From Octopus sinensis (lineage: Eukaryota), in NCBI RefSeq assembly GCF_006345805.1, contig NC_043000.1:139190001-139254000 (forward strand): a stretch of 64,000 nt of DNA. The letters are read 5' to 3'. A program made the translations under genes and the position numbers. This document shows, in pieces, positions 42,484 through 54,235 of the stretch (position 1 is the first letter of the stretch; each line of letters starts with the position of its first letter). The notes under the pieces are model-generated. The model was not told the DNA's origin and ran no database searches. It saw only the letters and a program-made list of their open reading frames with translations.

Positions 42484-42491
<8 letters not shown>

Positions 42492-42967
42492 ATATTTAGG
42501 AATGGTCATATTGCCAGTTTAGCCAATAAAAACACACGCACTATATATTTGGTGTTATTTTGCTTCAGTGATATTTATTTCTTACATTAATCTTAATCTT
42601 ATTTCGGCCAAAGTTCTTTCGTCACACTCCTGTGACCGCATCAGTGGTCCTTTGTTTTCTTCTCACTTACTTGTGTCTCTCCTTACTAACCGTCAGCCAT
42701 TTTGTATTTCTATTGTATGTCTTCATTTGCGCATGTTTATATCTCTATGTGCGTCTATGTTTATTTAGTGTGTGTGTGGGGGGGATGCCTGTAATATTTG
42801 TATCTTCTGGTTATATACATTCTTGTAATTTGTATTTTGTTTTTGTTGTTGTTGCTTTTGTTCTAATTTTGTTCATGTGTTTACATCCACCCATTATTAT
42901 CATTACATATGCTTGTATGTATGTATAACAACAAAATTAGTAATAATAATAATAAATCTAATTGAAA

Positions 42968-43038
<71 letters not shown>

Positions 43039-43258
43039 CATATAGACAAATTACAGAAGCTACACATATAATAGAAAATAAACCTAGCCTGAATAGAAAA
43101 CTAGAATGGAGCAATAGCGCACACCACAACATATGACGATAGTGGATCCTGCAAACATAATAAATACACAGGTAATTAAAGAAATAGAAATGAATATCTA
43201 TATATATGTATATGTGTATATGTGTGTATGTATATGTGTATATGTGTGTGTATATATG

Positions 43259-43317
<59 letters not shown>

Positions 43318-43552
43318 CTACTGGTTTGGCTACGCTGCATTGAAAAGGTGCAATACCCCGAAACGCGTCTGTAGCTGCCGGCCAAGTAGTGTGGAGCGAC
43401 TGACCTCCCTTGTTCAAAGGTTATATGGATACAGTTTGTGTATCAAATAGCTAACTTAAGGCGATGGCCTCATGGAGCTAATAAGCAGTCAGCTTTATTC
43501 TTATTTTTATAAGAATGCCATATTGGTATGGCGATAACTAATATTTTATATA

Positions 43553-43614
<62 letters not shown>

Positions 43615-44156
43615 TTTCAATTAGATTTATTATTATTATTACTAATTTTGTTGTTATACATACATACAAGCATATGTAATGATAATAATGGGTGGATGTA
43701 AACACATGAACAAAATTAGAACAAAAGCAACAACAACAAAAACAAAATACAAATTACAAGAATGTATATAACCAGAAGATACAAATATTACAGGCATCCC
43801 CCCACACACACACACTAAATAAACATAGACGCACATAGAGATATAAGCATGCGCAAATGAAGACATACAATAGAAATACAAAATGGCTGACGGTTAGTAA
43901 GGAGAGACACAAGTAAGTGAGAAGAAAACAAAGGACCACTGATGCGGTCACAGGAGTGTGACGAAAGAACTTTGGCCGAAATAAGATTAAGATTAATGTA
44001 AGAAATAAATATCACTGAAGCAAAATAACACCAAATATATAGTGCGTGTGTTTTTATTGGCTAAACTGGCAAAATGACCATTCCGAAATATAACAATATC
44101 TTTTTCAACACACGACTTCACATAAAAAATCTTGCACAACAAATATTTAAACGTAC
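42484..44156. mobile_element. Inverted repeat of about 500 bp (42484-42985 / 43597-44099) with tail, PLE pLTR-like
   Basis: Only about three substitutions seen between the arms. Mirror-image ORFs appear in the ORF track. Tail at 44100-44156. Confidence 0.92.
43315..43393 (+). ncRNA. Extended type I hammerhead ribozyme with U3-A8 core
   Basis: GCTGCA-TTGAAAA-GG TGCAATACC CC-GAAA-CGCGT-C-TGTAGC. Stem I extends through TTGGC/GCCGG, GG/CC and CTACT/AGTAG. GUC triplet ends at 43369. Confidence 0.75.
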
Positions 44157-44189
44157 TATATATATATATATATATATAAATGCATGTAT

Positions 44190-45952
44190 AAATATTCTAT
44201 AATTATAAACATAATTGTAATTAGGGGTCAGCTAGCTGCTTCACCGGATTTAGAAATAGGAGTTAAAAACTCCCTTTCTACTACTATAAGAATCTTCATG
44301 ACAGTAACACACCTTTTTACGTAGGCAAAGAGAAAAACAATGAATGAACATAATTCCAATTAGCCACAGATGCATTTTGAGATTAAAGTGTTTTTAATTA
44401 CTTACTACTCTCTTCAGTGTAGTATTTCCAATTATAAAACTTGAAAGTGCTAGGGTTAAATATAGATATGGTGAAGGTCGCAAATGTGTTCATCACATCT
44501 GTGGTTACCTACCACCTAACCATTGTGCCTTGTCCCCTTTCGTGACTAAACAAGTTGGAGCATCTGTTCTTTCACCTCTTGTAGAAGGGTGGTGTTCCTC
44601 TTCAAAGTTGCTTTGTCTGCTGCCAACACCCGCTAAAGGGTGAGCTAGGGATACCCAGGTTGCTGCTGCACAGACATGCACAGAGCCTGAGGCATCAGTG
44701 ACTCTACCTGGATGGTGAGAAGGTGTGGTCTTCGTTTGTTAAATTGTTACTTCCTAGGTTTACTAGTTTTAGTGAACTAGAACCATGGATCAAGTACAGA
44801 CCAAAGTTGGGAGATTGGGAAGTGAGAGTGCTGTAAGACACTCTTGCTGCTCTCTTGCACAGGTAATGCCAATGGTGGGGGTCCCACCTCGTCATTCTAC
44901 AGAGGGTTGGTAGAGGCTAAGTGTGACGACGACCTGGGGGAACTCTCTGGACTTCGGTGATAGTCAACTGGCCAGCCTATTCTGAAGGACGTTCGGGCCA
45001 GGATCCTTGGATAACTTTCATGGATCTCTGGCTTGGCAATGTTACCAAAGAGCCTTACCAGATAAACTCACAAGGCATAAGGTTATTTTAACGTAATGAG
45101 CTACTTGGTAAAATTATTAATTAATTGATTGGTTAATTAATTAATTTTACCTTTTATTATTAATTTGAAATTATAATTTACTCCAGTTATCAAGTTTTCT
45201 GCAGTACTGCTCATAAATACATGTGGGTACAAGGGATAAATAGTGTATTCACATTCAGCTGTGTAAATTTTGGAAGTGTTGGTTGGTTAAGGCGGTGAGT
45301 TGGCAGAACCGTTAGCACGCCGGGCGGAATGCGTGGCCGTATTTCGTCTGCCGTTACGTTGTGAGTTCAAATTCCGCCGAGGTCGACTTTGCCTTTCATC
45401 CTTTCGGGGTCGATAAATTAAGTACCAGTTACGCACTGGGGTCTATGTAATTGACTTAATCCCTTTGTCTGTCCCCTCTATGTTTAGCCCCTTGTGGGCA
45501 ATAAAGAAATATATCTATTGCACGATGTCGCTCGATCATGTGCATATTTAACCCTAACACTTTCAAATTTTATAATCTGAAATGTTACACTGAAGAGAGA
45601 AGTAAGTAATTAAAAACACTTTAATCTCAAAATGCGTATGTCGCTAATCAGATTCATATTGATTCATTGTTTTTCTCTTTGCCTATGTAAAAAAGTAAGG
45701 TACTGTCATGGAAATTTTTATAGTAATAAAAAAGGAATTTTTAACTCCTATTTCTAAATTTGGTATGCGGTGAAGCAATTAGTTGAACCCTAATTATAAT
45801 TATGTTTATAATTATAGAATATTTGTATAATTTTACCTATAAAATTTATTTTAACATATCGAGCTACTTGGTAAAATTATTAATTAATTGATTGATTAAT
45901 TAATTAATTTAATTAATCAATTTTAACCTTTTATTATTAATTTGAAATTATA
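44190..45952. mobile_element. Older foldback cassette: diverged arms of about 275 bp (44190-44463 / 45544-45824) with decayed HHRs
   Basis: Arms are diverged reverse complements. Each carries ACA-CTGAAGA-GAG..CTC-AAAATGC(A/G)T(C/A)-TGT. Direct-repeat tail at 45083-45174 / 45846-45952. Confidence 0.75.
45290..45510 (+). mobile_element. SINE family 2
   Basis: CpG-rich copy colinear with 14216-14445. Confidence 0.9.
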
Positions 45953-54191: not shown

Positions 54192-54235
54192 TTTCAGTAC
54201 CGGTTTCGATCATTTTGAGACCTTTTCAACTGTAA
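54192..54235 (-). ncRNA. Minimal type I HHR with U3-A8 core
   Basis: Minus strand: TTACAG-TTGAAAA-GGTC-TCAAAAT-GATC-GAAA-CCGGT-A-CTGAAA. Palindromic ACCGGT and a GUA triplet. Confidence 0.72.

What the first reader, a model, noticed from the sequence alone, without database searches (positions are those of the whole stretch)
43315..43546. Best ribozyme candidate: extended type I hammerhead with compensatory U3-A8 core in a 230-bp (TA)n insert
Seen: stem I GCTGCA/TGTAGC extended past a TAC/T internal loop by TTGGC/GCCGG, GG/CC and CTACT/AGTAG; core UUGAAAA; short stem II; GAAA; palindromic ACGCGU helix III; GUC cleavage triplet (cut after 43369). Established: C3-G8 is a tertiary Watson-Crick pair, so U3-A8 is a compensatory double change, and stem I internal loops contact loop II in fast HHRs. 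Intact CpGs suggest youth. The insert starts almost exactly at the base of stem I, as expected for a retrozyme-like or pLTR unit.
Basis: partly seen in the sequence, partly recalled or inferred. Interest (0 to 1): 0.8.

Follow-up and report, generated by a model that had tools for sequence, protein, structure and literature searches.

The report
Hammerhead retrozyme targeted by a LINE
This is a cut-short copy of a 362-base repeat, present over a thousand times in the genome, that carries a predicted self-cutting hammerhead RNA and likely spreads with Penelope-type retrotransposon enzymes; the ribozyme type is known, but a second mobile element (a LINE) sits almost only at one exact site just before this ribozyme.

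Summary
The hammerhead is real, but known in kind. 43314-43547 is the first 234 nt of a 361-363-nt tandem repeat with 1,054 exact core matches genome-wide. Stems I-III covary and U3-A8 is invariant in 18 of 18 aligned copies. U3-A8 and palindromic, dimer-type helix III are published for Penelope-like elements (PMC4209133). This copy has a stem II mismatch (43349), stands alone, and is likely dead. Its start at stem I is a chance truncation: 5' ends are scattered. Family copies show Penelope hallmarks: (TA)n targets, target duplications, head-to-head arms, and two fixed 3' ends 63 nt apart. In 70 of 71 classifiable two-armed loci each arm uses a different end. New: a 5.35-kb L1/Tx1-type LINE with open ORFs inserts at the base of stem I with a 17-nt duplication. 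38 of 40 copies with both ends visible are at this site; 35 are full-length. 5'-truncated copies and LINE-LINE tandems point to targeting by its own endonuclease. I found no report of a LINE targeting a retrozyme. Cleavage, circular RNA and the helper Penelope element are not shown.

The parts
43314..43547 (+). 5'-truncated retrozyme copy, monomer positions q1-q234 of 363; ends at fixed 3' end A
   Evidence: 98-99% identity to genome-wide copies; ends tabulated
43264..43314 (+). left copy of a 51-nt target-site duplication in (TA)n, with one diagnostic G
43547..43597 (+). right copy of the 51-nt target-site duplication
43314..43323 (+). last 10 nt of the 17-nt site (q-7 to q10) that the LINE duplicates in other copies; no LINE here
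43318..43389 (+). type I hammerhead with extended stem I (proximal 43334-43339/43370-43375; distal 43318-43330/43377-43389)
43340..43346 (+). catalytic core with U3 (43340) and A8 (43345)
   Evidence: U-A in 18 of 18 aligned copies; U3 255/256 and A8 256/257 in young copies
43347..43359 (+). stem-loop II; G>T at 43349 breaks the third pair
   Evidence: T in 2 of 259 copies; hammerhead fold about 7 kcal/mol weaker
43363..43368 (+). palindromic helix III, predicted to pair between two hammerheads
   Evidence: central pair varies as G-C, A-U, U-A and stays palindromic in 18 of 18; duplex -8.9 kcal/mol
43369..43370 (+). predicted cleavage site (after C17)
   Evidence: hammerhead numbering applied; not tested
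43517..43547 (+). hairpin (43517-43532) and fixed 3' end A, a likely reverse-transcription start; end B lies 63 nt further on and is absent here
   Evidence: (ends, fold)
42484..43017 (+). left arm of a different inverted repeat element that hosts the insert
   Evidence: 99-100% complementary to the right arm; related copies in L017, L026
43565..44155 (+). right arm of the host element; runs about 55 nt beyond the left arm's end before (TA)n

Best explanation
This is a lone, 5'-truncated and likely inactive copy of a 362-nt tandem repeat carrying a U3-A8 hammerhead predicted to cut as a dimer, a family likely copied by Penelope-type enzymes and used as a near-exclusive insertion site by an L1/Tx1-type LINE. 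Shown: tandem and head-to-head arrays, (TA)n targets, target duplications, two fixed 3' ends with one per arm, covarying stems, and the LINE at one site with a 17-nt duplication. Inferred mechanism: arrays are transcribed; two hammerheads would pair through helix III and release 362-nt monomers or circles; a Penelope RT-endonuclease dimer would cut both strands of (TA)n and prime at two internal RNA sites 63 nt apart, one per cut strand; the two cDNAs would stop at variable points and join by microhomology, giving inverted arms. The window copy kept one arm (end A). The LINE endonuclease likely recognises the DNA at the base of stem I; insertion there leaves the downstream hammerhead whole.
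For: Copy number 1,054 plus 168 of a G-U stem II subtype; older subfamilies at 71-87% identity keep the monomer and mostly both ends. Covariation: 89% of 502 cells paired, 8 of 28 pairs change on both sides, slid controls 27-48%. 176 of 186 3' ends at A or B; of 75 head-to-head loci 70 are A+B, 1 B+B, 0 A+A, 4 have a non-standard or cut-off end. (TA)4 beside an outer end in 91 of 100 loci; duplications of 9 nt or more with G/C in 25 of 100 versus 3.2 in mismatched flanks. Within-locus divergence 1.0%, between loci 2.9%; private variants on both arms in 7 of 63 loci. Circular monomer folds at z -7. Two internal RT starts, both-strand cutting and a predicted dimer were reported for an Anolis Penelope-like element (PMC11167929). 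LINE: 33 of 33 target-blind 3'-end matches are at the site (32 exact, one 1-nt variant, L120); 38 of 40 copies with both ends; 5'-truncated copy with 16-nt duplication (L191); LINE-LINE tandems spaced only by the duplication (L185, L187); a sister family ends in (ATT)n.
Against: No cleavage or circular RNA shown. 5' junctions are not clearly enriched at the cut site (6 in q55-59 versus 2.5, P 0.04 uncorrected, not the top window). No autonomous Penelope pLTR shares sequence with the monomer in the 50 GIY-YIG loci read (the matches found are separate retrozyme insertions nearby). The 63-nt tail is longer than the 30-40 nt in PMC8557442. Covariation controls are lenient for related sequences (tool note), and 'further pair types' fell below shuffles. 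Only 40 of 397 LINE candidates were scored, so diverged off-target copies may be missed; 2 of 40 are off target.
Confidence: 0.8

Rival explanations
1. The family is copied from uncut linear multimer transcripts; the hammerhead is kept but is not needed for integration, and no circles are involved.
For: 5' ends run through the cut site freely and are not clearly piled at it; hammerhead mutants still inserted in vitro and no RNA-seq reads ended at the cut in Anolis (PMC11167929); period-4 (L072) and alternating (L096) variant patterns in arrays fit multimer templates or local duplication; 8 of 9 predicted Xenopus dimers did not cleave (10.64898/2026.07.22.740005).
Against: Core and helix III palindrome are kept through compensatory change across subfamilies; monomers within a locus are more alike than between loci; mussel and axolotl repeats of this size give circles (PMC7229834).
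Confidence: 0.3
2. The window copy is itself an active, fast, monomeric extended hammerhead.
For: Core intact, long stem I with covarying pairs; coral and mussel monomers cleave well (PMC7229834).
Against: Stem II mismatch drops predicted pairing to at most 0.2; helix III is 2 bp plus a 2-nt loop as a monomer; no neighbouring hammerhead of the family in the window.
Confidence: 0.1
3. The LINE is the retrozyme's mobiliser, or LINE and retrozyme move as one composite copied by Penelope enzymes.
For: Near-total association; (LINE+monomer) arrays on both arms at C3:72.5M; 35 of 38 on-target copies full-length.
Against: About 40 LINEs against more than 1,200 hammerheads; retrozyme ends are in (TA)n with inverted arms, unlike the LINE's site; the five C3 LINEs differ from each other; one LINE subtype sits in several retrozyme subtypes; the G-U subtype is mostly LINE-free; no LINE fragment at an inversion junction among 43 copies.
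Confidence: 0.07

Closest known systems
Metazoan non-LTR retrozymes (Cervera and de la Pena 2020, PMC7229834; mussel 350-390 bp, axolotl 330/350 bp)
   Same: Tandem monomers of this size, type I hammerhead per unit, weak palindromic helix III, GC 40%, strongly self-paired predicted circle, long target duplications.
   Different: U3-A8 core; head-to-head arms and two fixed ends were not found in the parts read ('inverted' 0 hits); circles not shown here.
Penelope-like element hammerheads, incl. the U3-A8 variant of Schistosoma Cercyon (PMC4209133)
   Same: U3-A8 covariation, palindromic positions 15.2-16.2, dimer architecture.
   Different: Canonical 6-bp stem I and 4-bp stem II with long distal stem I, not the minimal form; no ORF between repeats.
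Penelope 'tail' and internal RT initiation (PMC8557442; Poseidon of Anolis, PMC11167929); Xenopus retrozymes as pLTR derivatives (10.64898/2026.07.22.740005)
   Same: Inverted 5'-truncated arm, tail at one end, AT-rich or (TA)n targets, two start sites.
   Different: Tail is 63 nt, in a non-coding element; the one-end-per-arm rule is counted here (70 of 71); no pLTR donor found.
Target-specific Tx1 LINEs: Tx1 in Tx1D, Tx1-Mar in Mariner-N4, Tx1-9_AMi in Harbinger, Keno in U2, Kibi/Koshi in microsatellites (PMC4494074)
   Same: CCHC ORF1, APE-RT-zinc finger ORF2, one site in another repeat, 16-17-nt duplication, tandems spaced by the duplication.
   Different: Target is a hammerhead retrozyme, 7 nt before to 10 nt into the ribozyme unit; nearly all copies full-length; Tx1 placement not tested by tree.
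R2 elements in 28S rDNA (PMC6765202 passages; co-transcription also in PMC4494074)
   Same: Site-specific element inside a transcribed repeat that may depend on host co-transcription and a ribozyme.
   Different: R2 encodes its own HDV-like ribozyme; this LINE would borrow its target's hammerheads (untested).

Membership tests
Type I hammerhead ribozyme | Conserved core with 3-8 pair, GAAA, NUH triplet | tested here: met
   U3-A8 18 of 18
Type I hammerhead ribozyme | Stems I-III supported by covariation | tested here: met
   stem I 3 of 6 and stem II 2 of 4 pairs change on both sides; helix III centre varies three ways
Type I hammerhead ribozyme | Match to an Rfam hammerhead model | tested here: not met
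   no hammerhead family listed; I attribute this to the variant core and 2-bp helix III (inference)
Type I hammerhead ribozyme | Self-cleavage; loop I-loop II tertiary contact | not testable with these tools
   needs in vitro assay
Non-LTR retrozyme | Tandem 150-450-bp non-coding monomers, one type I hammerhead each, GC below 50% | tested here: met
   361-363 nt, arrays to about 10 units; GC 40%
Non-LTR retrozyme | Highly self-paired monomer; long target duplications | tested here: met
   circular fold z -7 against 60 shuffles; duplications in 25 of 100 loci
Non-LTR retrozyme | Expressed as linear and circular RNA | not testable with these tools
   only contigs of runs not on record as RNA were offered
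Non-autonomous Penelope-like element | Inverted 5'-truncated arm, tail at one end, microsatellite target | tested here: met
Non-autonomous Penelope-like element | Sequence shared with the pLTR of an autonomous element | tested here: inconclusive
   none in 50 loci drawn from 150 scored of 5,029 GIY-YIG candidates, mostly one family
Tx1-clade LINE (the inserted element) | ORF1 with CCHC knuckle; ORF2 with APE endonuclease, RT, zinc finger | tested here: met
   closest solved structure human L1 ORF2p, E 3e-66
Tx1-clade LINE (the inserted element) | Sequence-specific insertion with target duplication and tandems | tested here: met
Tx1-clade LINE (the inserted element) | RT phylogeny groups it with named Tx1 families | not tested
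   no named Tx1 protein came; label rests on architecture and targeting

The most novel reading that the evidence does not exclude
The LINE is a hyperparasite that uses the retrozyme as borrowed terminal repeats: it is transcribed from the upstream monomer, and the flanking hammerheads trim its RNA so that both ends carry target sequence (the downstream cut lies 63 nt past the LINE end). That would explain why 35 of 38 on-target copies are full-length with the same 5' junction and no poly(A) run, and would make it a LINE dressed as a Penelope element. Against: an AATAAA lies at the LINE's 3' end, so ordinary polyadenylation could do the job, and only about half of the copies have a whole hammerhead upstream.
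Probability: 0.25. Interest if true: 0.8.

Novelty: new variant of a known kind. Interest (0 to 1): 0.55.

Why it matters
The ribozyme is one more member of a known class. Two family-level results matter. First, the one-end-per-arm rule (70 of 71) is genomic support for a dimer model of Penelope integration, an open mechanistic question, and a 362-nt non-coding template makes it simple to test. Second, a LINE with open ORFs and a 17-nt non-rDNA target that mostly inserts full-length adds a new target class (retrozymes) to target-specific LINEs and is a candidate for studying endonuclease specificity and precise insertion.

Tried and rejected
Rfam: nothing relevant. Fold of the 81-mer alone: not significant. 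Start at stem I as unit boundary: rejected. 5' ends piled at the cleavage site: weak, not accepted. Composite LINE-retrozyme mobilisation: rejected; the apparent link of the G-U subtype to LINE loci came from my own search pattern and vanished. Helper search: an RT+GIY-YIG family with a sense U3-A8 hammerhead and two (TA)n-joined ends about 30 nt apart exists but shares no sequence beyond the core, so it is only a candidate. Luense et al. 2017 (PMC5785218) is not held. Earlier scan findings: none. Supplements were not read and Repbase could not be searched; either may already list this family or a Tx1 family with such a target.

Full report
Observation. I number the unit from 43314 as q1. The predicted cut is after q56 (43369). 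The 81-mer folds no better than shuffles (z -0.96) and Rfam lists no hammerhead, so the case rests on copies. The host genome has 2.7 Gb; that it is probably an octopus is my recollection from repeat content, not a call result.

The family. The insert matches copies at 98-99% (779 candidates, 40 scored). They are tandem monomers of 361-363 nt. A 33-nt core pattern has 1,054 exact matches, control 0; a subtype with a G-U pair in stem II adds 168. Older subfamilies at about 71-87% identity give 734 matches to a tail motif and 27 to a core motif and mostly keep the same ends. In 18 copies that I picked across subfamilies, 89% of 502 cells pair, 8 of 28 pairs change on both sides, slid controls pair 27-48%, U3-A8 is invariant, and the centre of helix III changes three ways while staying palindromic. 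The tool warns that related sequences can beat its shuffles, and one measure (further pair types) was below shuffles. The distal stem I is weaker (82% paired).

The window copy. Against each column's commonest letter it has three rare changes: 43349 in stem II (2 of 259), a decayed CpG at 43487 (3 of 329) and 43525 (1 of 329). Predicted stem II pairing falls from 0.98 to at most 0.2. It is the only family hammerhead in the window. It lies in a 51-nt duplication of (TA)n that carries a diagnostic G, inside another inverted element. It is a single truncated insertion and likely inactive.

How copies end. I analysed 102 non-redundant loci: top hits, the loci listed for C1 and part of C2, and LINE-bearing loci; this is a selected sample of young copies with at least one core. 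176 of 186 3' ends fall at A (q221-235) or B (q286-302), 88 each. Of 75 head-to-head loci, 70 are A+B, 1 is B+B, none A+A, and 4 have a non-standard or cut-off end. If arms chose independently about half would match. 5' junctions (184) are scattered; the window is the only one at q1 apart from one misclassed LINE junction; q55-59 holds 6 against 2.5 (P 0.04 uncorrected; the top 5-nt window holds 9). (TA)4 lies beside an outer end in 91 of 100 loci, and G/C-containing duplications of 9 nt or more occur in 25 of 100 against 3.2 in mismatched flanks. Monomers differ by 1.0% within and 2.9% between loci, and 7 of 63 two-armed loci share a private variant on both arms. These are Penelope hallmarks. 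PMC8557442 (passages) describes an inverted truncated copy and a 30-40-bp tail often at one end only. PMC11167929 (parts 1-2 of 4) shows both-strand cutting, two internal RT starts and a predicted dimer. I infer that one dimer primes once from each cut strand, at A and at B. Circle versus linear multimer template is not settled.

The LINE. L076 holds a 5.35-kb element between two copies of a 17-nt stretch (q-7 to q10) at the base of stem I. L161 has both frames open, 512 and 1,140 codons stop to stop, with zf-CCHC, Exo_endo_phos, RVT_1 and zf-RVT; the closest solved structure is human L1 ORF2p. A target-blind 3'-end pattern finds 33 copies; 32 match the junction pattern and the other has a 1-nt target variant (L120). 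All 40 scored hits (of 397 candidates) were read: 38 at the site, 2 elsewhere. Of 43 copies, 3 were dropped because an end was in a gap or beyond the stretch; of 40, 35 are full-length with the duplication, 3 are truncated at the site (L191 with a 16-nt and L180 with a 10-nt duplication, L176 without) and 2 are truncated off target (L189 with its own 11-nt duplication, L190). The first base of the duplication follows the local allele on both sides. LINE-LINE tandems are spaced by the duplication alone (L185, L187). The five LINEs in the C3 array differ, and the G-U subtype is mostly LINE-free. A sister family at 67% nucleotide identity ends in (ATT)n in all rows shown of 30 loci (output partly cut). 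So the LINE likely targets the site with its own endonuclease. Multiple hits at 6 loci look more frequent than chance and are unexplained.

Helper. GIY-YIG search scored 150 of 5,029 candidates. One RT+GIY-YIG family has a sense U3-A8 hammerhead with a palindromic helix III like the older retrozyme subfamilies and two (TA)n-joined ends about 30 nt apart, but shares no other sequence in 50 loci. It is a candidate only.

Comparison with print. U3-A8 and dimer-type helix III in Penelope hammerheads: PMC4209133 (parts 1-2 of 4). Non-LTR retrozymes and their circles: PMC7229834 (passages and parts 2-3 of 6). Retrozymes as pLTR derivatives: 10.64898/2026.07.22.740005 (parts 1-3 of 5). Tx1 families targeting other transposons: PMC4494074 (passages and section 15). 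PMC13282606 lists active L1-Tx1 and Penelope families in Octopus vulgaris and has no 'hammerhead' or 'ribozyme' (passages). PMC6765202: passages. Searches (listings only) showed no LINE targeting a retrozyme or pLTR; the library lacks most subscription papers and Repbase, and I read no supplements.

Verdict. The flagged ribozyme is an ordinary, probably dead member of a known class (interest alone about 0.25). The family adds a counted one-end-per-arm rule and a LINE with a new kind of target. Novelty: new variant of a known kind. Interest 0.55.

Noticed in passing
window 42484-44155: A different young element with 99-100% complementary inverted arms, (TA)n ends and one arm about 55 nt longer, the same Penelope-type layout; it has an internal poly(A)/(TA)n and a hammerhead-like core variant near 43937-43970.
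   Followed up: partly
window 54192-54235 (- strand): A second hammerhead-like motif of another repeat family, also U3-A8 with a palindromic helix III; similar motifs in L078, L115, L221.
   Followed up: no
window 44187-44470 and 45537-45827: Another inverted pair, 86-89% complementary, probably an older insertion of the same layout.
   Followed up: no
L181-L184 (G000:C3:72.50-72.53M): Five different LINE copies occupy nearly every monomer junction of one retrozyme locus, on both arms; also double hits in L180, L185, L187, L194, L197.
   Followed up: partly
L072 1721-5287 and L096 1855-4336: Period-4 and alternating variant patterns within arrays: multimer templates or local duplication.
   Followed up: partly
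L288-L317: Abundant young sister LINE family, several with ORF2 frames of about 1,145 codons, ending in (ATT)n and forming tandems.
   Followed up: partly
L349 1674-5374, L353: Penelope-type element with two long frames (479 and 781 codons), the second with RT and GIY-YIG, and a long repetitive 3' region before its hammerhead.
   Followed up: partly
L045 1472, L093 1764, L072 1721, L094 1814: Four LINE-free arms begin at q358-359, the LINE's cut point; the excess is not significant but could mark cuts without insertion.
   Followed up: partly
LINE copies in L161-L200: Variant patterns are mosaic along the element, suggesting template switching or gene conversion.
   Followed up: no
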